From: Heptranchias perlo
Lineage: Eukaryota
Length of the DNA stretch: 64,000 nt
Assembly: GCF_035084215.1 (NCBI RefSeq)
Contig: NC_090354.1
Coordinates: forward strand, 3,472,001 to 3,536,000
Direction of reading: 5' to 3'
The position numbers and the translations under genes were made by a program. The notes under the pieces are model-generated. The model searched no databases. It had not been told where the DNA came from and saw nothing but the letters and a program-made list of their open reading frames with translations. Of the stretch, positions 17,458-63,154 are shown piece after piece. Each line of letters starts with the position of its first letter. Position 1 is the first letter of the stretch.

Positions 17458-17699
17458 TCACTCGAACTCTTTTACGTGCTCCTTACTGAGTCTTTTCATC
17501 TTCATCCTCCTGTTCTGAAACCAGATTTTGACTTGTCTTTCAGTCAGGTTGAGAAGACGTGCCACTTCGTGCCTGCGGTCCCTGGTGAGGTACATATTGA
17601 ATAGAAACTCCTTCTCCAACTCCAGGGTCTGATATTTGCTGTAAGGACATCTTTTCTTCCTTGTCGAACGAGCGTGTAACCAATTTGCAGAAGGGTTAT
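17458..17699 (-). CDS. HOXB9: HoxB9 exon 2 (homeodomain); absent from the ORF track
   Basis: Hand translation: [80 protein letters not shown]. Acceptor CATCAG|AT at 17700-17701, TGA at 17458-17460. 252 aa with exon 1. Confidence 0.95.
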
Positions 17700-18396
17700 C
17701 TGATGATGAGTGGAGGAGAGAGGGGGAAGAAAATCAGATCAGAATAAGAATTATAATGCGATCATATTTCTTCTATGCACTTCTAACTTTGCAATGGGAA
17801 TGGGGTGACTCTTCCAAAATGGTATCTATGCAGCTAAGAATTGAGATAGTATGTTCTGTTGTGGTCATATTCCTAAGCGTCTTTCCCTCAGTAAAGTGTG
17901 TTACTAAACTGGAAACCGCTGGGCGCCCTCGGATGGTTTAGATTTATTTTTGCTGTTTATTACTACGTTTGTAATTGAGATGTAAACGCTAAGCCCCGAC
18001 AGCATTGTATAAATTGCTTTCTTTTTTTTCTTTCTCAACGACTTCACATAAAGAAGGTTCCGCAAATTTTCGCTCACTGTTCTTCAAAAGATTGATTCAA
18101 ACAGAAAATTGCAAGGAAAAAATATGCTTTATTAATTCATTAATGTATTTATTGCCTCGTAGAGGATCGTCTGGCAAACCCGTCATTAGAAGTTTGCAGG
18201 TGGTGACTTGTGTAGCTCATAAAACAGAACTGAGGCGCATAAAGTAACAAGCAATATAAAACCAGTTAAATACGTGTAGCTAAACTGGAAGTAAACTGCC
18301 TCTAAATTAGAACCTTATTTCAGTCTCGTTTTTGCTTGATTTTCGTAAACGATAAACATTCTGAGATAAATCAAGTACATTTTCCGAACAACTTAC

Positions 18397-24121: not shown

Positions 24122-24210
24122 AATAACTGGAGTAATTCAGGCAGTTTCTTGTCACTGCGATCAAACAGAAGCCCAACAACATGAAACTACCTAAGTCACA
24201 CAGCAGTTCC
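24122..24210 (-). ncRNA. MIR196A: mir-196 precursor hairpin (miR-196a-type; mature 24172-24193)
   Basis: Minus strand gives UAGGUAGUUUCAUGUUGUUGGG exactly, a loop CUUCUGUUUGAUC and a complementary 3' arm GCAGUGACAAGAAACUGCCUGA. Canonical position between Hox9 and Hox10. Confidence 0.97.
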
Positions 24211-25558: not shown

Positions 25559-27877
25559 TTACAAGGGCATTGTGCGGAGTTCAGTGTGCTTAGCAATAGA
25601 CAAGAGGTGATGGACACAACGTTAATAGTCTTTGGTATAACAAGTTTCTTTACTTTTAAAAAAAATAAATATTACACTTTATCCAACATTACACATTTAG
25701 TATCTGACAAATCTCTATCTAAAAACACGCATGTAAAACTAATTGAGACGACAGACCACCATAGTTTGTTTGTATTAAATGTCAGATATTTTGATGAACA
25801 TTTAAAATACACGCTATTCTTAAGTACAAACACATTTTAGTTATAGTGTATAATGTCCACTAAGGGTGTACGTTCACTGCAAGAGGTATAATCGGCACTC
25901 ATGGCATGTTACAAGCTGGGTTTTAACCGATTGCTATATATTCGCATTATTTATGCAACAGATGTTCAAAAGAACAACTACCTATCCCCCAGTGGACATT
26001 ACTTCTCAAGAACATTGACTGAAACACTCGCCTGTGTCTATATCTATTTTCATTTGCCGATGTACTTAATCTGGAATTGCTATTGCGAGTTCGTATTAAT
26101 TTATTGGTTTCTCACATTCCATTCACGTTTTGATGGGAAGCTTTACGCCACGTCTGTAGTGTGGAACAGAATGAGAAATTAAACCGTAAAATTGAGGCTG
26201 AATCTTGTTAAACAAATCGGGGTCCAATTAGTTCCCCACCCAGATGGGTTTTTTTTGCCCTCAACATGAATCGAGAAGCTTTGAGGTATTTTTAGGTGTA
26301 GGGAGGAAAAATATAGATCAATGGCAAATGAAAAAATGAAATTAGTAGCCAGCGGGGACCTATGCGAATTGTTTTCTGTTTGGGAGGTATGAGCAAGGTG
26401 TATGGAGGCCAGTTCATGAATAATTTTAGTCACTTGATGTTAGTCAAAGGGACACAGACAAAAAAATCGCTATGTAAGAATCTGTCCTTTCATAACAATA
26501 AGATCATCAAAAAGCGTTCAAACTTAGTACTTGTTTCTTTCATTTAAATGCTTATATCAATAAATGTGCATCCAATAACTGTTTTACCTCTTCCGCAAAT
26601 CTTTATTTAGCAGACATCTCCAGTTATTAGATGTTATTTTAAGTCAAGTCAATTGTAAAACATTTTGTTAATCTACATAACAACAGTCAATGCATTTCCA
26701 AAGCAAGTTATAGTGTAAAAGCTTTAAGACGTTTCCACGTGAAAGACGCTAAATAAATGCAAGTGTTAATACTATAATCTCTATGAAATCGATTTGCAAT
26801 TTTTCATAGTTTGTTATTTCCAAGCACCTCTATTTAACTGTCCTTTGTACGATGCGGTCGTGCATTGAAATGGAAAAATCAGATTTTATTTGGAACTCTT
26901 AGAACACTTTTTAACAACAATCGTGTTTATTGGGCATTGTGATTGCCCACTGAAAGCACATGAGAGCAACGAAGAGAATTGCACATTGTTTGATATCATT
27001 TTTGTAAAGCGTGCCCATTCAATGATGTGCATAAATAGTCATTCTTACAAACTAAGAAGCAGGGGGATTCTTGATAGGGCGATCATCTAGGAAAACGTGT
27101 TTTTACCTTTATGTCCTCTTATTACTTTAAGAAACACCTTTGCTTTAAGACAAAGCAGGATGTATCTATCTATAAGCAAGAAATAATTCAAAATTTATTC
27201 CTTGGTAGACCTAGCATTTCCCATAATTACTAACCTCTAATTGTTTCAACATGCCTCTCTATTTTGAGGCTATTTTGTTGCTATACTTTAACAAGTGCTT
27301 CAAACATTCTTGTGCGTGAACTATGTCTGCGCAGATGGTGTTATCTAATAGTGCCGATTTCTCTTTTGTCTCACAACAAGCGGAAGTTGCAGACCCTAAA
27401 ATGATTACTCTTGTAAGCATGACACATATATGTGGTATAACTATACGTAGTTTAAATCCAACAAAAAGGACAAAATGTACAATGCAAACCAGATTTTATT
27501 GCCTTTTCCAAACATTCTTTCAGTTCCTTTTCTCATAATTAAGTGATAGGGCACTAAATTAATTGATGGCAATTAATGGACTTCTGTGCAGTAAACGAGT
27601 CTTCAGAATGTGCTCATTTTCAAAAGCAAATCAGTACCTTTTTGTTATGTTTCGTCATTTTGAACTTGCAATCCCTCCATCCCACCTTCTACCCTTCCCC
27701 TTAGCGGGCTCATTGTTGTTGTAGTGACTAGACTTGTGAACTTGCAACTCCTCCCCATGACCACCAAACTCCCCCCTCCCCCCTTCAATGTTGTTGCAGC
27801 GTCCGGACTTCTGCAAGGAGATGCCTTATATCGTCCACTGTCTCATTTTCTTAAATTGAAAAGCGTTAGCCCGTTCA

Positions 27878-28149
27878 TCAGATGGGGAAAGTAGCCGATA
27901 TTTCTCGAACTCTGTGCTCCCGGCTCATCTTTTTCAGTTTCATTCTTCGGTTTTGAAACCAGATTTTGACCTGTCTGTCGGTTAGATTCACGCCCCGGCT
28001 GATCTCCAGGCGGCGCTCTCGAGTCAAATACATGTTAAAGAGGAATTCCTTTTCCAGCTCCAGTGTCTGGTGCTTGGTGTACGGGCAGCGTTTCTTCCTT
28101 CCGCCCTTCGGCGTCAGCCAGTTTATCGCATTCTCAGCCCTTGTGCTCT
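27878..28149 (-). CDS. HOXB10: HoxB10 exon 2 (homeodomain)
   Basis: [90 protein letters not shown]. Acceptor TTGACAG|AG at 28150-28151, tandem TGA stops. 325 aa with exon 1. Confidence 0.92.
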
Positions 28150-31100
28150 CTGTCAATCGGGAAAAACAAATTGTCAGACGACCTGCTGAATAAAACGGGT
28201 TCTGTTTTTTTTCTCTTTCTTTCACCATCAACGATACCATGACTCAGGGTTTTGAAGGAGGTCTCCCAGTTGGGAGCGGGGAGGGGTGGGAGTGTCGGCT
28301 TACAGTCAACTAGTGGAATGTGAACAGTTCAGATTTTATCCCGTTCCACATTAGCACAAGCTGTAAATGATATTGTATCACAACGCTGCATTACCGGTTC
28401 GAATATATATGCTATTAACTTTAGGTCTTATCAATATAAGTGTTCCAACAGCTTTACTTGAAGATAAATCTTGCACCTGGACAAATAATTACAGTGAAGG
28501 CCTAGTTAAGATTGAATCTAAAATGATATTTCAAAATCACATTACACCTAATCCTTGATTTCTAACAAGATTCAGATGCAATGCAATGGAATAAGATATC
28601 ACAGACAACACTTAAACCCCCACCCTTTTTACAGTTTACATTCTGACTGTAAAGAGATAGGATTGTCCCGAAAGCTTCATTGCAAAAAACGTCACGAGTA
28701 GGTTTTAAACAGCTAAGATAGCTTAACATTAGCAGAAAATCGTACCCCTAAATTCTAATTTATAAGCTCCCCTTTTAAAAAATGTGCCTAACTAGTTTAA
28801 GGTAAACCTGTTGTATTTCCAAGGGGCATCTCACAAAAGGACTTTTAAGCATCTATTAACTTTCCAGAGTCAATGATTAGTGCAAATGACCTTTTGAAAA
28901 TTGTTTTAGAAGCGTGATGCAGCATTGCAAAATAACCTTTAACTCCTATAATGTCGCCTTTACACTGGATTTTCACTTAAAGGTTATGGTTTATGCAAGG
29001 AAATGGGAGTAGCTCCTTTGCGGAGAGGGCAAGGAACACAGATGTTTTCAACGGGAAGTCATGCGCCTTTTTATAAAGCGTCTCGTCGCTATTCATTTTA
29101 TTTTATTTGCTGAAAGTCTCCCATTTATTTTGTTAGTTTTTAATGCAACAGTTGACGCACTTTGAAATAGTTTTTGTCATTCGCCGCCCTTTTAAGTGAG
29201 TGTTCTGATGAAAATTGCTATGCTGACTGTTTCTACATAAACTTTTAGACTTATTAGCAGGATTTTTAAATTGTAAAAGGATCTGTGGTTCCCATGTTTA
29301 TTGAGGTAAACCTCACTGTATGCGAGTCAAATGTCGCCGATGCCGCCAATATCGCTGAATTAAACTGAAATGGGATGAACCAGAAGTCATTATTGGCAAA
29401 AAGGTCAAATGTACCCAAATTGTATGTGCAAAGATACACCCAGTTTCTCAACATCTTTGCAGTCTATATTGGTTGAAGACAAGCTACTTGGGTCCCCCGA
29501 GTCCTAATAACTCTTTTGTGAAATCCTATAGTTGCAATTAAAGTCTATAATTTAACCCCGTTGAAAGTGCGGATATCCATTCAACAGAGGGTTTTTAGGA
29601 TAAGAAAATATCAGATGCAATTTCGTTGATGTGAATTACACCCTGACACAGGGCAAGCTCTTGATTTTTTTGGAGGGGGTTAAAAATCATGGAACATAAG
29701 AAATGTCCAGGTTTGTTGATCCAACTACTGTACAAAATTTGTAAAACTAATAACGTCATAAAGAAGCAATCGATAAAGAGCTAAAATATTCGCTCCATAC
29801 GAGAAACGGTGTGTGTAGTGCAGGGATCAGCTCGTTACCGGCCATCTTTCAATTAAATTCTAAGGAGAAAAACACGAAACCTATTTGCGGGAATATCACA
29901 GCTTAAAGAATCTATAAATGGTTATTGATTGGCCATGCTCTTAGCTCTTGTTTAGATCGCAAGATCTTATCAATTCCATTCCGTTCAATGACATATCACA
30001 ATTCCCCAATATTAACCGCATTCGTACTGGATCTTCCTGTCCACAAATATTATTTAAAGTCATAAAACCTGTTTTTAAATATTCGCAAACTATTACGGCC
30101 TGACTTTGAAGCACCAGGTACAATTCAAGAATGTTCGTTGCGTCTGTTCTGGCGACCCAATGATAATCAATACATGCGAATGTATCATACATTTCAAATT
30201 AATAATGTGTGGTCAAATACATACGTGCAAGACATGGGGCTAAATTATAATATTTTTCTTTTATCTGTGTTTATCTGGCGCTCCAAATGGTCAAAAAGGA
30301 AAGGAATTAGATAATAGTCGGACTGAAATCTCCTCAGGTTTCTCCAATAGTTCTTTTTGTAAATGCTGCTGTGTCAATTTCTTGGTCGTATTGCTGTGTG
30401 TGAGAGTTGCACCATGTGTTACATTTTCTATTCAAATGCTATAACTTAATTGTGCGAACCTTTAGATCAAAATGGAAACTGCGTGCTGTGATTACCTTGG
30501 CCTGCATGCATGTAAAATGCGGAAAATTACTCAACGAGACTGAAGTGACCGGAACAGCAAGAATTTGAAAAGAAATACAGTCCTAAACAACGTAACCTGG
30601 GGTTCGGTTTAAAAATGAGCATGCAAATTTACAATATATCTTTAAGCAGTAAGCTAATTATTGACTGAGTAAAGCATTTTAATTACATGTTGTAAAGTCA
30701 TATTGTATACTAATGTCTGAATCCTACTCGCGGATTTATATTGCAACTGTTATGATTATTTTATATCAATAAAATATATTATTGTTTGGGAAGTTGTTTG
30801 GGAAATAACTGATATGTGTGAATCGCAATGTACGTTCTAATTTTAAGTATCGATTAATTATGTGCAAGTTCAATTTTTAAAACAGTCAAAATCCCAACTC
30901 AATTTAAGGGCTCCGTCTTTATTAGCTACTTTGTCACGTCATTAGGCTCTTTGTGTGAAGCTGACGTTATTTCAATGCAGCAAAGATGGCGGAAGCGTTG
31001 TTGTTATTGAGTTTAGTTTTTTTCCTGAGCCAAACTGAGATTTTTGTTATCAACTAAAAATGGAAATTCAATGTCCTTGGAAGTCAAATAATCTCCTGAA

Positions 31101-32298
31101 ACTGGGCACATCAACAGGTCTGTGCAATAAATGGATAACAGCAATGATATATTACCTATACTTTTTATATTAAAAAACTGCTCAATGATATTTCACTCTA
31201 CGGAATTAAAGGTCGACCAGCATTGAGTGTTCTGTCAGTGATCAGCTCAACTATGGGCTGTTCATTGGTAAGAAAGAAATCATGAGTCCCGACATCTACG
31301 GAGGGTGTTTATAGTTAATTTACAACAGTCCCCGCCAAGTCTATTTGTCAGTTTAAACTAACCTTTATCAATTCAGAATTACCCAGTCTGTAGTTTGGGT
31401 GCACACTTTTGATTTAGTCTAGGTTCTGTCAATAAATGGCATTAATGCAACCATACACAATTGAAATGAAAAAGACGATAAGATTGAAATACATAACTTT
31501 TCTCTATTCCTAAATGAGAGTTAATTTTACTTGCGAGGTGTTCCCTGTCTGTTTAGTGGGACAAGAGACACACTACACGCCCCTTTACAATACCTAGCCT
31601 CAAATTCACAGTGTAACGTGTGCTTCACATGTCCCAGATTTCCATAACAATACAAACAGTTGGATACACCATTGTTACTTGACGTGTAGTACAGTCTTCT
31701 CGTTTGTGTCACTTGTTTGTGTAGGTAAACATTCAATAAAAATCAGTGTTAGACAGAAAGAGCAACTCATCAGCCCAACATTTATCCTTAAACCTTAACA
31801 ACACACAAAACAGACACAAACAAGGAACCAGCCATTTGAACTGCTAGGGTTTGGGCCGATTTTACAAAGGACTTGTAGACTTTAATGCAGTTGAACTGGC
31901 TTCGCTTTGCAATGTTTCTTTTTTTTTGTTTGTGAGTAGGGGGAGGAAATCCGTTATGGCGAATCCGAGTTGATTATAACTTCCTACGAGTTATTGCATT
32001 CTGGTGTTTACTCGCTTCTTTCCTATTGTGTAGCGGGTCAGGGTAGGGGAAAATTATAGATATTTGTTTTTTATTTATGTTTTCCAGAAAAAAGGAAAGG
32101 GGAATTACTCCAACGCAAAAGTTAAACCCATTGACCACCTGTTACATAATAGTCAATTTCTGAAAGAATCGGTAAAGCGATAGTAAAAATTGCTTGATAT
32201 TCATTACACTTCTCATAGATTGTGTTAGAAACAGACCACAGCCAGAGCACCATCGGAATTATAGATACCTACCAGGAAATAGCATTAAGGGGACCTCA

Positions 32299-32923
32299 AT
32301 TACTAATTAGCATGTCAGTTCAATTTGTTTGCCCCTGTGGCTCTTTTATCCCTAACTTACCGAGGAGCGAGGTCTCATAAAATAATACTGCAATACCTCT
32401 GCAGCGCTGTGTGATGTAATTTTCCTTTGGCGCCATAATCTAGTTCCATGGCAACAAAGAGAGCTTAAGTAAATATCACATGGTGCCATCAAGCTCATTT
32501 TATTTATATTCAGTATTTGGAATTTGTAGTTGCATCTTAGATTGTTTTGATACATGAGCCAACCATTGAAAGACCATCGCTCGGATGCTTAGATTGCTGT
32601 TCGCCGGGTGTCAGCCTCACAGCCAACATATCAACACCCATAGCTGTTTATCAAAAATATTGCTGACCACTAATGCAACGTTTGCGCCAAAACCCTAAAC
32701 TCGAGCATTTTCTGGCATTTCATTTAAAGGAATATTTATCTGCATATATTTATGTTTCTATATATGTATGTATAAACTCTCTAATTATCCATGCAATGTT
32801 ACCCACATACATACACAGACATTTATATATATATATGCATACATATATACAGAAGAACGTATGTGTATACATGATGCCTCGGATTACTAATTAGTAGGTC
32901 AGTTCAATTTGTTTGCCCATGTG
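32299..32923 (+). repeat. 41-bp direct repeat pair (32299-32339 and 32883-32923)
   Basis: ATTACTAATTAG(CAT/TAG)GTCAGTTCAATTTGTTTGCCC(C/A)TGTG, 38/41 identical. Confidence 0.9.
32361..32436 (-). CDS. Candidate alternative first coding exon of HoxB10 (MAPKENYITQRCRGIAVLFYETSLL)
   Basis: ATT-ATG-G start, 25 open codons plus 1 nt, consensus donor CG|GTAAGT in phase 1 (in frame with exon 2), TATAAATA 65 nt upstream. No transcript evidence. Confidence 0.35.
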
Positions 32924-33130
32924 TATACGTATAATTATATATATTTAGATAAATGTATATATCTGTATATACAAGCATATAGATATACATATATATCGGC
33001 ATTATAATTATATAGATATATATGTCATTTTGTAAACATTTATCTGTGTATATAATTATAATTATGTATATATGCTCATAAAATTATATAGCTATATAGA
33101 CATATATATATTTGCATATATGTCATTATT
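32740..33130. repeat. Degenerate (TA)n/(TACA)n low-complexity region in HoxB10 intron
   Basis: tatatatatatgcatacatatatac... seen directly. Confidence 0.8.
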
Positions 33131-33560
33131 TATGTGGTAACGGAAGCGCTATTTTAAGTTTATATTTTACTTGATATAACTACAGCTTAAAGTTTTCTTC
33201 TTAAACATGCCTTGCATTTGGAAATGCTCATTTATTTTTGCCTAGGTGGGTTTTTATATTGGGGACTTTTACAACGGTTTCTAATGCAGCTAAGGAGTGG
33301 CCTTCAGAACAGGAACCTTCCGTTGTTTTGATCTTTAAAAGGGTCACTTAAACGTGTTTGTAATTTACTCTGCCGTAACGGGTCTGTCCTATAAATTACT
33401 CAAGGTATTAATTTGTACTGAGGGATCTTTGTGCTGGAGACAAAAAGGCTCCTTTATGGCCTAAATAAAGTCACCTTGCCGCAGATGAGAGAGCTGCCTA
33501 TGTTCCTGTTCCAATTGCCGTGTAATTGCTTGTCTTCCTTTCGTTCATGGTTTTACCCAC

Positions 33561-34266
33561 CTTTTGTTTCCTTCTCGGAAAGTGTCTTATTCGCGCCAGG
33601 AAACTGTAAAGAGGCACTTTCTCTTCCCCCGGTGTTCTTTCCCGCGTCTCCGCGGCCGGGATCGTTTGAGGTGCTCACTTTTATATCGTTTTCACCTGGT
33701 TTTGAGGAGGACGACGTGGCGAAGGAAGAAGTGAAGGAAATGTTGGACTGAATCGAGCACGGAGCAGTGACTAGCTGCGGTTGGTTGTAATCCGTGGGTT
33801 TATTTGATGGATAGGTCGGTTCTGAACGGAAGTAGCTGGGCATGGGAATCCTGCCACTGTCACTGGTGCACATTTCAGAAATCACCCTCGGGTACACTGA
33901 AACCTCAGGGCGCGTCTTCGCGTGCTTATCCCCGTCTAATAAACAATAGTTGGTTTCCTCCTTCACGCTGGACGCGAAGGAGAAAGTGTTTATCTGCTGA
34001 AGTCGGCCAGTGTGGCTGGATGGTGACGGGGTTGCCCACCCTGATATCCCTGGCACGTACTGATGTGGAACCAAACCTATGCCTTGCTGGTGATTCATTT
34101 CCCCTTGGATACGACGTGCTAGGCCAACTTGCCAATTCTGCACCCTGTAGCCCTGGTCCGGTCTGGAGGACAAATAACCCCCAGGACAGTAAGGTTCAGC
34201 TCGGCTGGAGCAAATTAAAGACCTCACTGAAAACGAGCTTGAAGCAGAATTCTCCGAACATGACAT
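33561..34266 (-). CDS. HOXB10: HoxB10 exon 1
   Basis: MSCSENSASSSFSVRSLICSSRAE...FSFASSVKEETNYCLLD...IPMPSYFR (Hox10 N-terminal motifs). Donor AAAAG|GTGGGT. 706 nt, phase 1. Intron 5411 bp. Confidence 0.88.
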
Positions 34267-34394
34267 AGCTGCAGCTTAATTTGCTGAGGAGGGGGGTGGG
34301 GGAGGAGGGGGGGAGGGTGGAAAGAAAAAAAAAGGTCCTTATCAAACTGACATTTCTCCTGGACTCATCAGAAGGCGGCGGTGGACAACTTCCT

Positions 34395-34550
34395 CCCAAC
34401 CGGCCAATCAGAATGCCAGTAGCCACTGCAGGCTCCGCCCACATCACGGGGGTTTTGAAATGAGACGAAAATTGATGCATTGGTGGGGCTCCGCTACACT
34501 TAGTTATTGTGACAAATACAAGCTTGTTAATTCTGCTTTAATTAACCAAC
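34395..34550 (-). promoter_or_regulatory. HoxB10 proximal promoter
   Basis: GGCCAATCAG (NF-Y), CTCCGCCC (GC box) and TTAATT/TTAATTAA sites 130-280 bp upstream of the ATG. Confidence 0.55.
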
Positions 34551-37500
34551 TTGGAAGGGAAGCCTCTCGTTCTCTACTAATAAATATTCACCACTTCAAC
34601 TTAAACACGGTGGTAGGCATTTTTTGTGTCAAATTAAAACAAAACAAGATTATATTTTGCAGGGATTTTTTCAGACAGTATGGCGACAGCAGGAACACTG
34701 AAGAAGCTACATGCATCTTTCAAGTTCTGTTTTGTGGAAGTAGTGATTTAGAGGAAATACGGACAAAAGAGGAAAACTGAAAGTAACACAGAAATTCACT
34801 AGTGGAAAGAATGCATTAGCTTTCAGGAAGAATGATGCCGGCACCTCGAGAAATAGGCATATATATCTTTAATGTGATAGATAAATATCTCTATATATAT
34901 ACATATAATTAATTTATTGGAACGGCTAAATGTTAATTTATAGTTTCAATAGCGTCATACAGTTAAGTGACATTAACAGCCTCCCATCAGATGGGACATG
35001 GCGTTTGGACTTAAGTTTACGTGAATCTGAAAATATATATTTTACACACACGCACAAACGTGATTCAAAAGCAAAGTTCAAGGTAGAGGCTTTTTTGGGT
35101 AAAGGTGGCAGTTTATATATAAAGATAGCACTGGGCGTGGGATCTCTGCAGTTTCCAAATGCATAAAATATGAATATCATTTCAAACAATACTGGGTGTA
35201 ACAATACGGCGTGAATGATTGTAACAACGTACAAATATTTAACTTTTGTTCTAGGGTCTCTCTCTTGTACTGTACTGGGTTAAAAGAGGGCAATGAGATC
35301 CAGGGTTCGAAGATGGCCGCAATTCCCCCCTCACAAATATTTTAATCCGTTCATCTAGCTATTTGAAAAAAGAATTACGTTTTATCTATTTATTTTAATT
35401 TTTCGCTGTTTCTCGAACCTGTTTTTATTTTTTTAACAAAGAAATGGCAAAACTTCACTTTACAGTTTCGATTTTGTATTCCGGAGACTTTTCCCTTTGC
35501 CTATTTTAATTTTTATTGAAGTCTTTAAGTTCCTTATTTGCTATTTTAAACGTTAAAGATGATTATTTATGTTTTATATGCTTAAATTCTGCTATATTTA
35601 TTTATTTTTCATAAAGTATTAAGCTTTGGCGGACTAGAGAGCTGAATACACATATAACTAAACAAGCAAACATGTAAATAAATAGGTAATTTTACTAATG
35701 CAAGTGCGTATATTGGACACATACATCTTTCTGAAAGAAAGGAATCTTAGGCCTGCAGTATATTTGTGCAGAGCTGTTCATTTAGAGACCGTTCGCTTTG
35801 CCATTAATATATATCCATTAAATCTGACTTTATGTATCCCTAAGGTTTTGAACTGAGATCAAATCTCCGGTGCAAACATGTCTTTGCAATAGCAGTTTTG
35901 GGCCTAAATCTGTTTTTTTTTAAGAAAGGGAGGATTATGTAAGTTGTCTCTTTCCCGAGACTGAGATATTTTATAGCCATTCTGTCAAATCACGCACAGG
36001 CGCCAACTCAGGGGAAACAAACTTTATTAACAAAAAAAAATTAACTCTGAAATATTACCCCCTCCCCCCGCGACCTCACGTTACCAACTGTAAATATTTT
36101 TAACAACAAAAAAAATCTAAATCCTGACGATGACAGATTAGGACATTCCTATTGACAACTGACTAACTACAGATTTGGTGGAGTTGTCCTTTTCAACCTC
36201 AATTAAATCTGCTTTCGTGACTAAAGTTAAAACTGTACAGTCCGCACATATTTTAATTCACTGGAAGCAGCAGCAACGAATCATCAATGTGAGTTGGAAA
36301 TACAACCGGAACTCATATGTTCTGCTGTTAATTGAATTAGGTTGTAGATGGGATTCGACGCCTCTCACACCCCTACCCACCCCGAGAAATACATCATCTA
36401 AAATGAAATGAAAACACCTTTGTATGTAGAACTGGACTTACTTACAATTTACAACCGGGTAATATTGCAGAAACGCAATAGTGGATTGTAGCATGTTATT
36501 GCCACATGGACGAGACACACGTGGGGACACTTTTTCTACCCGGAACTGCAGCAATAATTCTACAGAAATGACTAAGGGGCGACTTTCAAGAGAATAGGCT
36601 GAGGGATTATCCCGTCCCCTGCTTGTAACGAGACCCTGGAGGACAGTATTTTGGGCACCGTCTAGGACAATCTAAAGCGCAGGCAACTCTTTGTGGGGGA
36701 GAGAGAGTAAAGGGGTGAGAGGGGAATTATACAGTGGATATCATGCATACCAAATAAACACAGAATATAAATGCAGGACTCAGAAAGTGTTCTTTAATAC
36801 AATAGTTCCACATTAGTGTATGTATGTGTGTATATACACTCGTTAATCTCTGGATAGATTATGCAGTTACGTTATAGTCCTTACCTAAACACATACGCAC
36901 AAAATTGCATAACTGGGTCGATAGACACATAATTCGGCTACATTTTATGATTCATTGTGCATGTAAATACCACATGTACTCGCGCGCAGTGAAAAACGGG
37001 TCTGTTAAAAAGGGGCTGAAATTGCTGCTCTCACACGTTGTTAAGGATATACTGCTGCAAAACTGCAGATTTGGATTATTTTTTAAAATAAAGGTTTGTA
37101 GAAACTATGAGGTTAGATTGCACAGTTGAATAGTGAGGCATAAAATAATTATTAAAAACACATGGAGATTTGGGATACTTTTAGTGAGATTGTGAAAACA
37201 GTCCCGCCCAACAATTAGATTAACCAAATTATGAATTTGATAAGTAATACGTCCTTCTCATAGGTTTCATTTGACCTCCATAATCCGTTGGTACCTTTAC
37301 TTTTAAAACACGGTGTTTTACACACGAATTTACGTGTATTCCTTGCACAAGGGTCTTGGTAAACAGTGTATACGTCCAGTTTTAGTATACGTGCTGCTGA
37401 ACAGCCAGAATTTACCGATCAAAGCAATTTATATGTGCTTATTGAATAACAACATTCATTTTGTATCCCCTGCGAAAAAAAACCCATGGGGATTGTAAAC

Positions 37501-44000: not shown

Positions 44001-45321
44001 CAATTCAAAATAATCCAAATCGCAAGGATCAGAAACACACAACGGAACCCACAGAAAACTGCTGAAGAACTCATCAATTCAATATACCAAGGAGTGTTAT
44101 TTCTAAACACAACACAAATTTCCGAAAATAAGCTAGTAGCAGGATATCTGAACCCAGCTGCTTATGAAAGCGGGAATCTAAAATAATGAACATAGGGAGT
44201 TCTATATTCAGGTGTTGCCAAACCAGCTCAATAACACGGAAGAAAGACGCTTAAGTCAAAACAGATCAGGCGACCATGTCCATTTACTCAGTTGCGGTAT
44301 TTACTGCTTTGACTACATCGATGTGCGGAACCAAAAATCAACCCGGGGGTAAACGCTAAGCAGGGATTATATTAATGCATTAGAATTCTGCAAGTCCAAT
44401 AAGGAGCTAGACCCCAAGATAAGATAGGGGGGATCTGATTTTCGTTGCGACCTGTTCTTTTTACACGTGGTTTGGTGTCTGCCGTTAGCTCGCCTGATAT
44501 GCTATTCTGGACCATGCGTGCAACAATCTTCCGCTTCGATTGAATAAAAGCTTCAGTGATGTACAAACAAGATCCAAAACATTACTTTCAAGAATCCCGC
44601 CATTGCCAGGAGTAACCTACGGCCACCAGGAAGGTATACTTACTCACCTGTCAGATTCTTACGGTCTGTTTAGGGGTCTCCCCAAACTCTCATTTGTTGC
44701 TTTAATACTGCACGCCTTCAGTTCCTCAATGACCATGGGTCGTGGGATCTGTGCTCTTTCCCCCTCCCCGTTCGTACGCGCGCTGCAGATTTTATAACAC
44801 ACTGCATAATATTACTGCTATTAGGGCTTGACGTTGATTGCGCCATCCTGCGGATTATGCAGATTGCCCCCCGTTACTGTTTAGCTTTTGAAAAGAACCC
44901 TTCGTGTTATTTAGGAGGCTGTTGTATTTATGTGAAGTCGGCGCTGCGTGTACTTTCCACCTCGTTTGGTCAGTCGGATTGATGCCAAGGGAGGCTCATT
45001 TCAAAATGAGTCGTTAACATGTTATTAAAGATCAGTGAAATATAACTGTAGCCATGACAACGGTTTTTGCCTGTTATTGGCGCAACATGGCAAGGTTACA
45101 GAACATTGTCCACTGCGTCAGACCCTGGAAGGCCCATCATCCACACAGTTAATAAATAGATTCACTTTCTGTCAACAGGGGGAAAAAATCCAGCGCCAAG
45201 TTTGAACGCCTCTTGTTTTTTTTGTGCTTTGAGGCTGCTCGGAGCCATTAACAGATCGTGAAACTGATCCGTTTCCGGAGCGAAGTTTGGAAGTTTGTGC
45301 TGTTAGTGGAATGTGTTTGTC

Positions 45322-50302: not shown

Positions 50303-51600
50303 CTAGAATTACATAGAATCCACAGAACAGAAACACGCCATACGGCCCAATTGGTCTATGTCGGTGTTTATGCTACACACGAGCCTCCTCCCACTCTAAT
50401 TACCTCTTCCCACTCTGCCCCCATAATCCCCTATTCCCTTCTCCCTCATGTATGCATCTCCCCTTAAATGCACCAATCCTACCTGCTTCAATCACTCAGT
50501 GTTGCAGCGAGTTTCACATACCTACCACTCTCTGTGCAAATATATTCCTCTTAAATGCTTTGTTTGATCTGTTGATGACTATCTTGTATTTATGCCCCCT
50601 TGTTCTGGACTCACTCACTAGTGGAAACGGTTTCTCCACCCAATTGAACCCCTTCATAACTTTATTTCCTCTCAGTCTTCTCTTTTCCAAATAAAAGAAT
50701 CCCAGCCTGCTCAATCTTACCTGGTAGTTGCATCTGGTCAATTCTAGTAACATCCTTGTAAATCTTTTCTGCACTTTCTCTAGTGCTTCAATATCAATTT
50801 TTGTAATATGGGGAACAGAACTGCACGTTCCAAGTATAGTCCAACCAAGATTCTACATAAATGTAATATTATCTCCTTGCTTTTGTATTACATTCCCCTA
50901 GAAATGCATCCAGTACATTGTTGCACTTTTTATGGCCTTATCAACTTGTGTTGCTACATTTAGTGGTGTATCTATCTATATTCCCAGATCTCTTTTCTCC
51001 TCTACCCCGTTTAGTTTCTTATCTTCCAAAGAATAAGTTACCTCTTTATTCCTCCCACACATTATTAGCTATACGCCCAAATTCGGTATCATCTGCAAAT
51101 GTCGACACCGTACCTCCAATTTCTGAGCCCAAATCATGTATGTATATGGTTAACAACAGTGGTCCCAGCATGGATCCCTGAATTGCCCTTGTCTATTGTT
51201 TCTGTTATTTCTTCAGAGAATTCAATAACGTTGGGTAAACATGACCTTCCTTCCAGAAATCAATACTGACTATGTTCTATTATAGTCTCCATCTTTAGAT
51301 GTTTTGTTATCTGATCTTTCAGCAAAGATTCTAGTATCTTTCCTACCACTGACGTTAAGCTAATTGGTCTATAGTTCCCTGGATTAGTTGTATCTCCCCT
51401 TTTCAAGATAGGAATTACATTTGCTGTCCCCCATTCCACTGACATTATTCGTTCTTCTATTGGAGTTTTATGTATGGATACTAGTAACTCTGCTATCTTC
51501 TCCCTAATTTCTTTGAGTATCTGTGAGAGCAGTCCACTGGGACCCGGGATCTTGTCCTCCTTAAGTTTGGCTAGTTTGCCTAGTATCTCCTTTCTTTCTT
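50303..51600 (-). mobile_element. CR1-type LINE fragment (decayed ORF2 3' part and 3' tail)
   Basis: Peptides WGTANVIPILKRGDTTNPGNYRPISLTSVVGKILESLLKD and QKRFTRML...LEKRRLRG...FPLVSESRTRGHKYKI...FAQRVV; (TTCTATG)-like tail at the left end; frameshifts and internal deletions. Confidence 0.9.
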
Positions 51601-54600
51601 AACTGATATTGCATCAGAAACGTGTCCATTGGGGTGTGGTGTAAAATGTGTATTGCCTCTACTCTCAGGCAACTGTGTGTGATTGTACATAACATGTACA
51701 TAACATGTAATGCAACCACTTGCAATGGTTGTACAAAACACAACAAGAAGCCACATGGGCAATAACTTGCCCATAAAAATATTGCAACTCTCCAAACCCG
51801 GAAACGTTGATTTCAACGAGGCTGCGCGATGGCAGCGCAGGGGCGGTTTCTACCTATGAGTTCCCAAAACTGATAAATATTTAGTTGAGCCAAATTAACT
51901 TAGTACGTTCCACTGATAATTATATTTTTAAATGGTAAAGATGTGATGAAACTAAACAGTTTAAAAGCAAAGTTCTTAATTGTTAGCTAGAGATATCTTC
52001 AAACCTTAACTTTTATCAGAAGAATGAGGACAGTTTGGATCAGATAGTAGTTTTCTCATCCAATGGGATTTGAAATAGTATCTTGTGCCGACACTGTTCA
52101 CATTTCCGGTATGTATTGTGTCCTGGAATTCAAATGAGGGATTTTGTTTATCAAACAATTAAGGTTTTAAGTTAATCACATAATTTGGGATGGAATGTAA
52201 ATGATTTTTCCCTCAGGATTGCACACAACAATACATATTATTAAATGAATTTAAATATACATTTTTCAGCCTTCCCATATTTTGAGAACTGATATTCAAT
52301 TCTACATCCCAGTATTCTTACCAAACACCCCTTTCTCCTAATACTGGTGGATTTTATATTCTTGTGATCCTGTGACAGAAGTCACACAATGCTCACATTG
52401 AAATGAGGATTAAATTAATTGGGATAGTATAAATCTCCAGTGACACTGTATTTTGTGATATTTAAACATTGACGCATACGATTTGATAGAGAAAACAGGG
52501 AGCATTATGTCATGCTGACTTGTTTTAGTCAAGTAAATACTGAAAGGGACCAATGTAATCTATTGTGTCCGTTGTGAGTATGCAATATCAGGAAGGTGCA
52601 GCGAGCGTTATAAATGTCCACGCGTCTGTGTATCTTTGCTTTATAGACTAAATGGTGATTAAAGCGCGCCATGGGCTTTTAAATCTGTGGTATTGAAAAT
52701 TAAAGCTTGAAGTTCCCTTTCAGCGATAAAGAGAAAACGATAAACTTTGCACACTTGCTGCTAAAGGCTGGTGCTTCACCGTGTGTGTTTTCAAAGCCAG
52801 TTCTGGTCTGTAATGCAAATTCATCTGCAATATTAATCTTTGAGGGTTAGTTTATTTATACTGACGAGGTAATTCGATATTATATGCACGTTTAATTTGA
52901 ATATCTGAACGGTAATGAGTGAATTCATGCTACGGATTATATTTTGCACACAATTAAATGGATTTTAAAACTCGAATAAATTAATCTTATTAACACAGTA
53001 AATATCTGTAATTTTATTTGCATGGTCATCGTTTAAAGTTACTTGGAACCAAACGGCCTTCGACATCTGGTCCCATCTAGAAGTCGAGCTGACTTTTCAA
53101 GTTAAAAACTCAGCTCCATTAGTGAAGAATTTAGCGCCAGCATCAACGCTAATTAAAAACCCAGTAAAATGTGTCCCAGAATAAGGGCTGTGGCTACTTC
53201 AAGGGGGAGGGGGTACAACAGTCCGATAGAGTCGGTGTCTCCAGTGGAGTTTATTCGGTTCTATTCGCATTAAAAGACAAGCCGCAATTTTTCAGACCGA
53301 AACTGAATTTCTCTGCCGCTTTCTTTCACTCACCCAACAATGATAAGAATTCGACTTAACGCGCCAAATAAACTTCAGATTCCTGGATTAAAAGCTGTTG
53401 CCTTTTTCTTTGTTTATGTAGAGTTGGAAGATCTCTTTCTTTCTCTCTCTCTCTAGCTCCAGATTTGATGTTTGTTATAAGAGGCGCCCCAGCCTCTGTC
53501 TCTTTTCTCGTCAGCCAGTTGTCTATTCGCACATATAATTTACACAGACAGGCAATAAAATGTCTGGCTGCTGTGTGCGCAACCTATACAACGCCTTGCA
53601 GAAAGGCTGGTTTTAAATGCTACACCAGCACAACCGTGGGATTGAAATTTTACCTTCCACCCGCATTTAGAATTTATAGTCTCGATATATTTTTGGAAAT
53701 GCTAGCATTTTGTTTCGTATGTGGATAGATTTTTTAAAAGAATTCTAAAAACAAACAAACAACGCCACTGTGAAAACAAATCTATAAACTGTACTTGATC
53801 GTGGATGTTTGGTGTGGAGTTCTCAAAGTTTAAAGCACCGTTAAATACATTGTATTGTAAATATTCTGTATGGTTAAAAATCCAGGTGTTAAAATATGGG
53901 ATTGATAAAAAAAAAGAAATCTCTTGGAATTTCGATGCCTCTGCTAGCGCTCTGGGCTCTTTATGACCCTATCTGAGGCGAGTGGCTGCAAATGATTGAA
54001 CTTCTCTTGTTATTTCTGTCGGGCAATTGTTTTCCCTCCTGCAGTTTCTAACCTTGAAACGGTTCCAGACTTAAACTTTATTCCCTGGACGCATTCCCCT
54101 GTGAAACTTACTTGTCGTTCATTCTAGAACGGATGTTTATTCGAGAGAAAGTTTAATGTGTTGGAGACTCGACTTCTTGTTTGCTGTAGTCTATTTGGTG
54201 GAGATCCTTATAGAAAATATTTTTTATTGATTGGGGGAAGGTTCAAATAATACAAATAAAGCGACATCGCCAACATACAAATACAAGCAACACCTATAAA
54301 AAAAACACCATCTAAAATTAGAAAGATCAGTCTATTGCAAGGTGTATAAATTAGTCAAGAAATCCGTGGTTGGACCCATCTTCAGGGCAAAATTTAAATT
54401 CTTAAAATTCACTTGTAATTCTACTTCATATGTGTATCTAAGGACAAAGAAATTACCTCCTCTTGTTACAATATCCTCCAACATGGGGGAATCTCATGGC
54501 GTGCGATGTGATCACATGATCCTACCAAGAATGCAACATTGCTTGCACCAAACACTTTGGGGCCAACATTGGTTCATCGGCGGTGGAATGTCAACAGCTT

Positions 54601-58537: not shown

Positions 58538-58950
58538 CATAGAATCATAGAATCACGGAAAAGATACAGCGCGGAAGGAGGCCATTCGGCCCATCGAGTC
58601 CGTGCCGGCTCTATGCAAGAGCAATCCAGCTAGTCCCACTCCCCCGCCCTTTCCCCGTAGCCCTGCATTTTTTTCCTTTCAAGTACTTATCCAGTTCCCT
58701 TTTGAAGGCCATGATTGAATCTGCCTCCACCACTCCCCCGGGCAGTGCATTCCAGATCCTAACCACTCGCTGTGTAAAAAAGTTTTTCCTCATGTCACCT
58801 TTGGTTCTTTTGCCAATCACCTTAAATCTATGTCCTCTGGTTGTTGACCTTTCCACCAATGGGAACAGTTTCTCTCTATCTACTCTGTCTAGACCCTTCA
58901 TGATTTTGAATACCTCGATCAAATCTCCTCGCAACCTTCTCTGTTCCAAG
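58538..58950 (-). mobile_element. 5'-truncated CR1-type LINE 3' end (relatively young)
   Basis: Uninterrupted EQRRLRGDLIEVFKIMKGLDRVDREKLFPLVERSTTRGHRFKVIGKR...FFTQRVVRIWNALP...FKRELDKYL, then 3'UTR and a (TTCTATGA)n tail. Confidence 0.93.
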
Positions 58951-59614
58951 GACTTTTGTACTCTATCTCATAAACAGAGATATACAGACACAACATATGC
59001 ACCATCTCTCACCGGAAGACGTAAACATCCAGCACATGTACTCTTTGACGCATAAAGGCATGGATATAGCAACATGTTTACTATTACACACGGGCATACG
59101 CATATTTGCTTCCAGTAGCGTTACGTAAACGAGCAGTTAGAATAGAGGAGACCGTTCCAAAAGATAAAAGCCGTAGAGGACAAAATAATTACAATATTAA
59201 ACGGATATTTTCTAGAAATATTCACCAAGGAATATAACACTAACTTGCTATCCAATTCTTGTAATATTCCCAATAACAGAGGATTTTGAAGTTAATAGGG
59301 CAGAGCTACTTGCCAAGTTGAAGGAACTTTAACACTAACAAATCACTTGTGACAGATGGTATCTATCCTACGTATTTTGACGCCAACCATAGAGGAAATT
59401 TGCATCGTACTGGCTATCGTCATGAATGAATCGCTGTTGGACTGTTGGACTGAAAGCAGCAAATGTAGTGCCTTGGTTTTAAAAGAGCAACATATCTGAT
59501 CCAGGTACCAACAAACCTATTAGCCTAATATCAATAGTAGCTAAAATCGTGGAAATTATTCTAATAGGAAGGCTGGAGGAATATCTACAAAGCAACAACA
59601 GTAACAAAATAACC

Positions 59615-59724: not shown

Positions 59725-60182
59725 AGAATGAACCGGAGCTTAAAGGGTTAAATTATGAGTACAGGTTGCATATACTTGGCGTGTGTTCTCTTGAGTTTAG
59801 AAGGTTGAGGGTGAACTAATCGAGGTGATTAAAATGATTAAGGGATACGATAGGGTTGATACAAAGAAATTATTTCCTCTGCTAGGGGAATCCAGAACAA
59901 GGGGGCACAATCTTAAAATTGGGGCTAAGCCATTTGGGAATGAAATCAGGAAGAACTTTTCGCACAAAAGGTAGTGGACACAGGAACTCTCTCCCCCAAA
60001 AGGTTGTGGATGCTGGGTCAATTGAAATTTTCAAGACTGAGGTCCATAGATTTTTGTTGGGTAAGGGTACCAGGGGAAATGGAATAAAGGCGGTAAATTG
60101 AGCTGAGGTACAGATCAGCCATGACCTAATTGAATGACAGAACAGATTCGAGGGGCTGAATGGCCTCCGCCTGTTCCTGTAT
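59725..60182 (+). mobile_element. CR1-type LINE 3' end nested in the older element
   Basis: GLNYEYRL...SLEFRRLR.ELIEVIKMIKGYDRVDTKKLFPLLGESRTRGHNLKI... followed by 3'UTR GATCAGCCATGA...GAGGGGCTGAATGGCCT...CTGTTCCT. Confidence 0.85.
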
Positions 60183-63154
60183 AGAAACAGCCAGCATTGA
60201 TTTAGAAGGTGACGAACTTTACAAATCTTTTGGAATCCTTTGAAGTGTTTCGGACAAAATAGATAGTGAAATTGTAGGTTATTATTTATTTGGAACTTTC
60301 AGAATGCCTTTGACAAAGTTTCACATGGGGAACGTCTTATTAAAGGGAAAAAAACATAGGGATCCAGGGTAGAACTGGATAAGATATTGGTTATAAAATA
60401 GGAATTGGGTCGAACTGGGGGGAATTAGATCTGAGTCCCTCTAGGGTTAATGTTTCGATCGCCGTGTTTTTCCCCAATTTATACTAATTACCTGGATATC
60501 AAAAAATTACCAAGTTTGCTGAACTAGGTAAAGCAGTGGAAATAGATTTGCAGCAATGTTAAAATCTGTTGTGCAGCTGAGCAGATAAACGGGACATTAA
60601 CTTGAACACTGATAACTGTAAAGTATTGCAAAATGGTCAAGTATATTTCATAGGTATACAATGTTTGCAACTGAACTATCAGAACGAGAGGTAAGCAATC
60701 TTTATACAACCACTTCTGTGTTAATGTGAATAAGTTTCTGCTGTTCAGAAGTGCAAAATTAACTGTATTTGGTGACCCAAGATCTGAACTCCTTCCTAAT
60801 ATAAGGTTTCAGACTCATTCTGCTCTGGACACGCTCCAGTGCAACTTCACTTTGCCTGGGTTCATATATAAAACTGGGAGTTACGCAATGTACAGTCTCA
60901 CACCATGTATTGAATCGCCCAATACAAAGCCATAACAGGTTAGATACAACTACAAAATTAAGTAAAACTCTTGTCTTGCACATTTTTACTACACTTCGCT
61001 TTACAATGAACCTACAAAACTTCCGAATAAATCATATGTGCACACACATAATCGTATATCTATACCTGTGTCATAACGTAAGATTCCATTTTCTGTCTAT
61101 GCGTGGGATGTCTAAATCAGTTTAATTATAACTTCGGTCTATACAACCGATTCAAATTGAGACATGTACCAAACTCAGACCGTATATGTAGTTTAATGGC
61201 AGCCTTAGAAATTGATCCGGGAATGATAGTGGACTTATCACTCTCGAAGTCTAGACAATATGGCAAATCAACATAACAAAGCGACTGGATTGCTGGGATA
61301 TATGGCCAGAAGAAAGTCTTTACAAGTTATGCTGAGTCCTTATAATGCACAGGTCAGGCTTCACTTGGAGTATTAATGGTATAGATTAGGTAAAATAGGA
61401 ATAATACTTCCGAATAATCCCGGAAATGAGAACCAGGGGATATGCATTTCAATTTAATTTTTTGAAAAAATTAGAACAGATATTTGGAAGAACATCTTCA
61501 TTCAAAGAGTGGAGTATGGAGGCTAAATTAATGGATGCTCTAACGGGAAGGATGAGTTTCGATTTTTTTTTCTCGTCCTTGACTTACATTCTTATATACT
61601 CGCCCTCTTTCTCACACACAGACATACACACGTCTAGACTCTTTATACCACACGTAACCCAAAGTTAACAGTGTTCAAATGTATTTTTACATTGACACAG
61701 GCGGCTATAAATATATTTCCGAAAGTAGTGCAAACGGGCGATTCTATAAGAATTAACTATTTTCATTGAGGTATTCCTGTAATAAATTGCGGGACAGTTT
61801 TCTCATGAAATGTCCACGAATTGGATCTAATTACGGACTTTTTGTTAAGTGGTTGAGGTTACTTTGAAATTAATGCAAATTATTTATTTCTAAACTCATT
61901 GGTGTCTGATTGAAGCTCTGGTTTTGAATTACAATATCCGAAGTATTGCCTATTTCCTTTGCAGTCGTTCTAAGGTCGGGTTTCGCCTCAGGAGCGTTTT
62001 GCTGAAACACGACAGTAATAAAACCAAACGGTAGGAACCCTGACTCTCTCTTACAAATAAACTGCATCTTTAAATTCACAGACGTCCACACAAGTCCAAG
62101 CCAGCCTCCTCGAGTACCAATGTTTAAAAAAAATTAAACTAAAGTGGTCTTTGTATCAGGGAGACTTTGAAGATGCTTCGGCTGCAATGAAATGGATTTA
62201 GTGTTTACAGCTAGACACCATTATTTGTATTTTATGTTTAGAGCGCCGAAATATGATAGATTGGTTGAAGAGGTTGGACTGCACGACCCGATAGTTCAAT
62301 TGCAGATTAGCTGTGCAAAACCAACTGCAAAATACAGAACATTCTCACAGATTTCTGTTAATCTCAATGTACGGAATTCCAGCTTCACACTTGCCAGGTG
62401 GAGAAACCTACAATGTGAGATTCAGCCTTGATAGGTTACAAGTATTTGCACTTAGTGGGAATTCTCGAACGTTAAACGTGCTAAATTCATAGTTTAAAAA
62501 ATCCTTGAATTTTAATCCGAATATCGACATGTTCTCCATGAAACTGCAAGTTCGGAACAGGTTGCTATTTGGTTACCAGTGGAAGTGTGTGACCCTTATA
62601 TAAAACTTATGTTATATAATATCTACAAGATAGATTCGAATTATTGTACGCATATTATCAGAGCAGAAACATTGTGAATAATAGCCCTGCTTTCTATAAG
62701 TTTTTGATTGTTATTAAATAGTGGATTGTTCAAATATATTTATCACAATATTGTACATCATGGAGCTGCTAAGCCTGTATTCATTATTGCACTAACATTA
62801 AAATGATGAAGAGTGAGATATGTTATAATTGCATTGATTTCATTGTTGTTCATAACTGTACGTGATCTTTCCTTCCCCAGATAAAGCACATTGTACTCAA
62901 TCAATATAAACTAATCAGCAGTACCTGGAAATCCAGGCAATTTGATTCGTAAATTTGCAGGAACAGAACCGATAAACAATTAGCAATTATGATATTATTT
63001 ATTTTTGGAATTGGACGAAGAGAGAAGAGGAGGGTACCCCGTGACAATAGAATTAATATTTATAATGGCGCAATGGAAATAGCTGAATCTTCATCTCGCT
63101 CTGATCAATAATGTCATAAAGTAATCGCTGGTCCCGTGTTATGAAGTGTGTCGA

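What the first reader, a model, noticed from the sequence alone, without database searches (positions are those of the whole stretch)
32355..32510. Hidden alternative first exon in the HoxB10 intron encoding an in-frame short homeodomain isoform
Seen on the minus strand: TATAAATA (32501-32508), E-box CACATG (32477), RFX-like GTTCCATGGCAAC (32443-32455), an ATG in strong context (32436), 25 open codons MAPKENYITQRCRGIAVLFYETSLL and a consensus donor CG|GTAAGT in phase 1. Splicing to 28149 gives a 115-aa protein (...[24 protein letters not shown]...) with the homeodomain but without the 235-aa N-terminus. All Hox introns here are phase 1, so the exon could also join HoxB9 exon 2 in frame, with mir-196 inside the intron. 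Known: mammalian HOXA10 has an intronic alternative first exon and HOXA10-HOXA9 read-through transcripts. Inference: a paralogous, possibly ancestral, module. Caveat: an out-of-frame ATG at 32449 (24-codon overlapping uORF, strong context) would compete, so the transcript may be mainly non-coding or a pri-miRNA host.
Basis: partly seen in the sequence, partly recalled or inferred. Interest (0 to 1): 0.75.

Follow-up and report, generated by a model that had tools for sequence, protein, structure and literature searches.

The report
Shark HoxB10 distal non-coding leader exon
The proposed hidden exon inside this shark's HoxB10 intron has all the stated sequence signals but no RNA or protein support here, while one transcript contig shows a different exon 10 kb upstream spliced onto the homeobox exon, giving a likely non-coding RNA that is placed like the human HOXA10 distal variant and possibly carries mir-196.

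Summary
The combination is uncommon (P 0.004-0.16 per intron, post hoc). Nothing shows it is used. Contigs of 3 of 4 runs join exon 1 to exon 2 straight across it, no joint to 32361 is listed, and none of 203 retrieved proteins carries the peptide. The premise is also off: the human HOXA10 alternative start is 6.3 kb upstream, not intronic (PMC11986565, PMC4342872). The same data reveal a different alternative exon. In 1 of 4 runs a contig leaves the exon-2 acceptor (28149) and maps uniquely to 44648-44723, 10.4 kb upstream of the HoxB10 ATG. It ends at the only CAG|GTRAGT donor on this strand of the window. Both its ATGs stop inside the exon, so the RNA is likely non-coding and possibly a mir-196 host. 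Shared ancestry with the HOXA10 distal exon is untested. A RefSeq model in another shark joins HoxB10 exon 1 in frame to HoxB9 exon 2. No earlier scan note on this was found.

The parts
32361..32436 (-). Present in the DNA, no use seen
   Evidence: skipped by the 28149-33561 joint in 3 of 4 runs
32375..32449 (-). Out-of-frame ATG in strong context, 24 codons
32443..32455 (.). RFX X-box-like 13-mer (consensus recalled); lies 3' of the start site the TATA would predict
32501..32508 (-). TATA-like word, 1 of 14 in this intron
32299..32339 (.). Copy B of a 41-nt direct repeat holding Forkhead-like and TAATTA words (motif names recalled)
32883..32923 (.). Copy A of the 41-nt repeat (93%), inside a TA-rich tract, 584 nt from copy B
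44648..44723 (-). Distal exon (at least 76 nt) spliced to the HoxB10 exon-2 acceptor; donor CAG|GTGAGT; ATGs at 44736 and 44693 stop inside the exon
   Evidence: loose end of an X1 contig (table 7), exact unique match at 44654-44683, donor, frames
44790..44796 (-). Candidate TATA box for the distal exon (start near 44765 is inferred)
   Evidence: sequence
33561..34350 (-). HoxB10 canonical exon 1 (ATG 34266, 235 codons); the X2 contig begins at 34350
25600..28149 (-). HoxB10 exon 2 (homeobox, stop near 27878) and a long 3' region; contigs run past 25600, the edge of the stretch laid
24129..24202 (-). mir-196 precursor
   Evidence: Rfam RF00256, 68.7 bits
29196..30465 (+). GT..AG intron on the + strand, joined across in one X1 contig: likely a spliced antisense RNA in the HoxB10 intron
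   Evidence: table 5 (depth 6.9, letters between not known); splice signals
17458..17699 (-). HoxB9 exon 2, phase-1 acceptor; outside the stretch laid

Best explanation
The stretch at 32355-32510 is likely ordinary intron, probably part of a cis-regulatory element with a cryptic donor that is seldom or never used, whereas the alternative 5' exon seen in RNA lies at 44648-44723 and is spliced to HoxB10 exon 2, making a likely non-coding transcript. Shown: the joint from 44648 to 28149 in one contig of one run, the consensus donor, and the lack of a reading frame from that exon into the homeodomain. Inferred: a distal TATA promoter near 44796 fires in some tissues; polymerase reads 16.5 kb through the HoxB10 promoter and exon 1; the donor pairs with the exon-2 acceptor, so exon 1 is skipped. 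The two leader ATGs stop 11 and 22 nt before the joint, too close for junction-dependent decay (50-nt rule, established knowledge), so the RNA would be stable. The first in-frame ATG (28033) lies inside the homeobox and would give only 51 aa. The RNA most likely acts as a primary transcript that runs on to mir-196 (about even odds) and/or tunes HoxB10 by transcription across its promoter.
For: Joint 28149-33561 in X1, X2 and X3 (one sample) crosses 32361; the only other joint listed is 29195-30466. The X1 loose end behind the acceptor matches 44654-44683 exactly, once, with 0 of 100 shuffles matching. The six letters next to it equal 44648-44653 and are followed by GTGAGT; this is the only CAGGTRAGT on the minus strand of 64 kb. 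Leader ATGs give 25 and 7 codons. Contigs of X1, X2 and of organism B reach the 25600 edge, 2.3 kb past the stop and past six AATAAA words. No protein under 160 aa with the shark HoxB10 C-terminus, and no hit to the 25-aa peptide, among 203 proteins. The window's own HoxB10 is listed as one 325-aa protein with no isoform label. In humans the alternative HOXA10 start is distal and its RNA is called putative non-coding.
Against: The distal joint rests on one contig in 1 of 4 runs. It appears as a loose end, not a listed joint, because 44648 lay outside the stretch laid. The exon end and the intron end share 6 letters, which also fits template switching. X2 holds HoxB10 as one unbranched contig without it. 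Contigs drop rare forms, tissues are unknown, 18 loose ends and 56 pieces were not shown, and probably no embryo was sampled, so a joint at 32361 could be missed. No contig was followed to mir-196: 1.4 kb with three more poly(A)-like words (25372, 25279, 24416) is unseen. The enhancer reading of 32250-32760 rests on motifs only (6 Forkhead-like words against 2.55 expected).
Confidence: 0.66

Rival explanations
1. The reader is right in tissues or stages not sampled: an intronic TATA/RFX promoter makes a 32361 exon that joins exon 2 and yields a 115-aa homeodomain protein or a mostly non-coding RNA.
For: All signals are present and in frame; it is the only GTAAGT in the intron and P is 0.004-0.03 on strict criteria; it holds the best X-box-like word of the window; short Hox-A10 isoforms are annotated in mammals.
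Against: Contigs of 3 of 4 runs splice across it and no joint to it is listed; no such protein among 203; a strong out-of-frame ATG sits 13 nt upstream; the human precedent is distal; criteria were post hoc and relaxed ones give P 0.14-0.64.
Confidence: 0.15
2. The 543 nt between the two 41-nt repeats, which hold the whole proposed promoter and exon, are a lineage-specific insertion with a long target-site duplication, so the signals are incidental and young.
For: The repeat is 93% identical, unique in the window, and brackets the feature; the copies show no similarity beyond 41 nt.
Against: No second copy of the inner segment in the window; no poly(A) tail or terminal inverted repeat seen; copy A sits in a TA-rich tract, which also fits a short templated insertion of copy B during break repair (inference).
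Confidence: 0.1
3. The 44648>28149 contig is a reverse-transcription template switch or assembly chimera, and HoxB10 has only its canonical form.
For: 6 shared letters at both ends of the joint; one contig, one run; not in the unbranched X2 contig of the same sample.
Against: The break falls exactly at the window's only CAG|GTRAGT donor on this strand and at the real acceptor, in the right order and on the right strand; three of the six shared letters are the CAG expected at both splice sites.
Confidence: 0.07

Closest known systems
Human HOXA10 transcript variant 2 (NR_037939) from the distal promoter, and the HOXA10-HOXA9 read-through
   Same: An alternative start several kb upstream of canonical exon 1 (-6.3 kb; CpG island chr7:27219309-27219750, hg19; PMC11986565, PMC4342872), with an RNA called putative non-coding. 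Mammalian protein models show a short M-x-Q start joined to Hox-A10 exon 2 (P0001) and to Hox-A9 (P0167, P0168). The shark 44648 exon has the same position and skips exon 1.
   Different: Different cluster (B, not A), 10.4 kb away, and no in-frame ATG. No sequence likeness shown (3 published primers tried). Joining to HoxB9 was not tested.
Polycistronic Hox/miR-196 primary transcripts (A10-9 with mir-196b; B7-8-9 with mir-196a1; Mainguy et al. 2007, PMC1831499; PMC9456764)
   Same: Long sense transcripts with non-coding 5' exons whose introns cover other genes; miRNAs co-transcribed with Hox genes.
   Different: Those are mammalian, and mammals lack HoxB10 (recalled). Here the leader joins HoxB10 exon 2, and inclusion of the mir-196 hairpin was not observed.
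RefSeq model XP_078080345.1, Mustelus asterias 'Hox-A10-like isoform X2' (P0112)
   Same: HoxB10 exon 1 joined in frame to an 80-aa tail identical to this window's HoxB9 exon 2; mir-196 would lie in its intron if gene order is as in this window.
   Different: Starts from canonical exon 1, not from a hidden exon. It is a computed model whose read support I did not see.
HOXA10-AS
   Same: Antisense RNA overlapping exon 2 of a group-10 Hox gene (PMC11986565); the + strand joint 29195-30466 suggests a similar RNA here.
   Different: One low-depth contig; strand inferred from GT..AG only; no sequence comparison made.

Membership tests
   It is in the intron; the human start is 6.3 kb upstream. The mouse layout was not checked.
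   No joint listed in 4 runs; 3 join across it; contigs cannot show absence
   115 aa in silico; no such protein among 203 retrieved
   No similarity to L002 (whole teleost hoxa10 intron; 84 of 200 shuffles score as well) or L001 (109 of 200); no other shark genome was available
HOXA10-variant-2-type alternative first exon: distal exon (44648) | Lies upstream of canonical exon 1 | tested here: met
   10.4 kb 5' of ATG 34266
HOXA10-variant-2-type alternative first exon: distal exon (44648) | Spliced to exon 2, skipping exon 1 | tested here: met
   One contig in 1 of 4 runs, at a consensus donor
HOXA10-variant-2-type alternative first exon: distal exon (44648) | Short in-frame start (M-x-Q type) | tested here: not met
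   Both ATGs stop inside the exon
HOXA10-variant-2-type alternative first exon: distal exon (44648) | Is a first exon with its own promoter | not testable with these tools
   Contigs cannot show a start; a TATA word at 44796 and no pyrimidine tract before 44724 are hints
HOXA10-variant-2-type alternative first exon: distal exon (44648) | Shared descent with the HOXA10 exon | tested here: inconclusive
   3 published human primers match no better than random tiles; the human exon itself was not available
HOXA10-variant-2-type alternative first exon: distal exon (44648) | Also splices into the group-9 gene | not tested
   HoxB9 and 44648 both lay outside the stretch laid
miR-196 primary (host) transcript | Same strand as, and upstream of, the hairpin | tested here: met
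miR-196 primary (host) transcript | RNA is continuous through the hairpin | tested here: inconclusive
RFX-bound enhancer or promoter (32250-32760) | X-box motif | tested here: met
   consensus recalled; loose matches are not enriched
RFX-bound enhancer or promoter (32250-32760) | Conservation, open chromatin or reporter activity | not testable with these tools
   No genome held; no chromatin data

The most novel reading that the evidence does not exclude
The distal 44648 exon and the mammalian HOXA10 distal exon descend from one promoter module that sat between Hox11 and Hox10 before the vertebrate cluster duplications. It skips exon 1 to drive miR-196 and Hox10/Hox9 read-through RNA, and on the B cluster it outlived HoxB11 and HoxB12, with sharks keeping the full arrangement.
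Probability: 0.22. Interest if true: 0.62.

Novelty: new member of a known kind. Interest (0 to 1): 0.33.

Why it matters
The distal exon matters more. It suggests that the skip-exon-1 layout known from mammalian HOXA10 also exists on the B cluster of a shark, which makes the age of Hox/miR-196 polycistronic transcription testable with existing shark genomes and long reads. It also warns that probes or read counts on HoxB10 exon 2 may measure a non-coding RNA. Complex non-coding transcription in Hox clusters is well known, so this is a new case rather than a new principle.

Tried and rejected
Runs: no holder was on record as RNA. I take X1-X3 as RNA because their contigs skip the 5411-nt intron; X4 shows no joint. 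No contig of the 4 runs covers bin 32288-32591. It is also a weak hint that the segment is not a common transcribed repeat. Depth: in X1 the first 200 nt of exon 2 have depth 1564 against 119 for exon 1 and 18 for the intron. My arithmetic leaves about 1100-1400 for the 44648 path (the method rebuilt the X2 bin exactly). The tool warns that contig depth cannot rank parts of a gene, and paralogue pieces fall in the same bin, so 'major form in X1' is only a hint. Genome: none held. Metagenome scan: 80 loci kept, only 2 of them vertebrate group-10 (L001, L002); blastn found only low-complexity hits and local alignments were at shuffle level in 8 of 8 comparisons. CpG: the ratio is 0.58 at the proposed start (98 of 124 tiles are as high), 0.89 at the distal exon (28 of 124) and 0.45 at the real HoxB10 start, so it is uninformative. 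HoxB11/12 remnant as the source of the distal exon: no degenerate homeobox beyond the four intact ones (next best E 0.75, at the window's edge). Alternative tails of Hypanus and Mobula HoxB10 isoforms do not map to the window (E 0.3 or worse). Of 10 other loose ends tried, none mapped to a new exon; 3 gave hits, at 5651, 6805 and 17463, the last two in the HoxB8 and HoxB9 exon-2 regions. Earlier scan notes: nothing by place or sequence, and two unrelated notes by words. Literature: 10 searches listed no paper on alternative HoxB10 exons in sharks; the library lacks most subscription journals. I could not check the recalled mouse Hoxa10 transcripts of Benson et al. 1995, so an intronic exon in mouse is not excluded.

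Full report
Setting. The window holds HoxB7-, B8-, B9- and B10-type genes on the minus strand (the B7 and B8 names are my reading) and mir-196 at 24129-24202. The 235-aa exon-1 product is 100% identical to a protein named Hox-B10a of Heptranchias perlo, and 15 other hits are chondrichthyan proteins of the same family. The canonical splice 33561>28149 gives 325 aa, the length of that record.

Observation. All listed signals are at the stated places, the join to 28149 gives 115 aa, and the join to HoxB9 exon 2 gives 105 aa. The donor is the only GTAAGT in the intron. In 2000 Markov shuffles of the intron a comparable set arises with P 0.004 (TATA, strong ATG, GTAAGT), 0.029 (no TATA asked) or 0.164 (any ATG), and 0.018, 0.137 or 0.636 with GTRAG. 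The criteria were chosen after seeing the site, so this is suggestive only. There are 14 TATA-like words in the intron. The X-box-like word lies downstream of the start the TATA would predict. A 41-nt direct repeat, 93% identical and found only twice in the window, brackets the whole feature.

RNA test. Four runs hold part of the gene: X1-X3 from one sample and X4 from a second organism. All are contigs, none on record as RNA. Laid on 25600-34700, X1, X2 and X3 each join 28149 to 33561 across the proposed exon. The only other listed joint is 29195-30466. No joint to 32361 is listed. Contigs drop rare forms, the tissues are unknown, and 18 loose ends and 56 pieces were not shown, so this does not exclude the exon.

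What the RNA shows instead. One X1 contig runs from exon 2 into 70 letters that lie nowhere in the stretch (table 7). Its first 30 letters match 44654-44683 exactly and once. The six letters between also fit 44648-44653, and the next genomic letters on the minus strand are GTGAGT. This CAG|GTGAGT is the only CAGGTRAGT on that strand in 64 kb. So an exon of at least 76 nt, 10.4 kb upstream of the HoxB10 ATG, is spliced over a 16.5-kb intron to the homeobox exon and skips exon 1. The six shared letters leave room for template switching, but the exact hit on both splice sites makes that unlikely. A TATA word at 44796 suggests a start near 44765 (inference). The ATGs at 44736 and 44693 stop after 25 and 7 codons, and the first in-frame ATG after the joint (28033) is inside the homeobox and gives 51 aa, so the RNA is likely non-coding. 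X2 carries HoxB10 as one unbranched contig, which fits library-specific use.

3' end. Contigs of X1, X2 and X4 reach the 25600 edge, 2.3 kb past the stop codon and past six AATAAA words. The hairpin is 1.4 kb further, with three more poly(A)-like words between. A host role for mir-196 is therefore inferred, at about even odds.

Protein test. Searches with HoxB10 exon 2 (107 hits, 48-156 aa) and HoxB9 exon 2 (67 hits, 43-139 aa) returned no short protein with the shark C-termini, and the 25-aa peptide hit none of 203 proteins. These searches see only those length ranges and cluster representatives. By-catch: Mustelus 'isoform X2' (P0112) is HoxB10 exon 1 plus an 80-aa tail identical to this window's HoxB9 exon 2.

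Conservation. No genome is held. Of 80 metagenome loci, two are vertebrate group-10 genes; one holds a whole teleost hoxa10 intron (names from my reading of the peptides). Neither resembles the proposed exon or the distal exon. Three published primers from the human distal promoter match neither region. These are weak tests.

Comparison with what is known. [quoted passage not shown] Its alternative start lies at CpG island chr7:27219309-27219750 and its RNA, NR_037939, is called putative non-coding (PMC4342872; passages). Hoxa10/Hoxa9 fusion and pri-miR-196b transcripts are documented (PMC9456764 and bioRxiv 10.64898/2026.03.29.707813; passages). Polycistronic A10-9 and B7-8-9 units with miR-196 are listed in PMC1831499 (parts 1 and 2 of 3 read), and a HOXB9/miR-196a-1 transcript in PMC4393232 (passages). 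PMC8293171 (passages) lists HOXA10-AS for birds and mammals and does not mention HoxB10. I saw no figures or supplements; exact exon maps there could refine the positional comparison. The distal shark exon works like the HOXA10 distal exon in position and exon skipping. It fails the in-frame start, and shared descent is not shown, so I do not file it as a homologue.

Verdict. The proposed coding exon is unsupported (about 15% that it is used somewhere). The locus does have an alternative 5' exon, elsewhere and likely non-coding, resting on one contig. New member of a known kind; interest 0.33.

Noticed in passing
window 29196-30465 (+), contigs 28126-30741: One X1 contig skips a GT..AG intron on the + strand, with donor GTGAGT and a branch-point-like word near the acceptor: likely a spliced antisense RNA inside the HoxB10 intron, placed like HOXA10-AS. 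Longest ATG-led frame 63 aa. X4 has intronic pieces at 29498-29653 and 29972-30152.
   Followed up: partly
P0112 (Mustelus asterias, XP_078080345.1); window 17461-17700: Annotated chimera of HoxB10 exon 1 and HoxB9 exon 2 in frame: a group-10 N-terminus on a group-9 homeodomain.
   Followed up: partly
P0122, P0127 (Hypanus sabinus), P0126 (Mobula birostris): Ray HoxB10 models in which exon 1 joins tails without a homeodomain; the tails do not map to this window.
   Followed up: partly
window 32299-32339 and 32883-32923: 41-nt direct repeat, 93% identical, 584 nt apart; one copy sits in a TA-rich tract. Origin unexplained: templated insertion or long target-site duplication.
   Followed up: partly
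window 25600-27878 (-): HoxB10 3' region of at least 2.3 kb read through six AATAAA words in X1 and X2, and covered at 90-95% identity in organism B.
   Followed up: partly
window 33453-33469 (-): Paired TTTAT...CATAAA words about 100 nt into the HoxB10 intron, like the homeodomain/Cdx-binding element known from other Hox introns (recalled; sequence).
   Followed up: no
window 50500-51850, 58600-59000, 59800-60300: LINE reverse-transcriptase-like fragments (read; family likeness recalled) appear only beyond the distal exon. PMC1831499 reports that in mammals repeats stop at the non-coding unit upstream of Hoxb9. Not tested with a repeat library.
   Followed up: no
window 34400-64000: No degenerate homeobox (no HoxB11 or HoxB12 remnant) found with a group-10 profile.
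   Followed up: yes
P0167, P0168, P0001: Mammalian models show the same short M-x-Q/P start on Hox-A9 and Hox-A10 tails, consistent with one distal exon serving both genes.
   Followed up: partly
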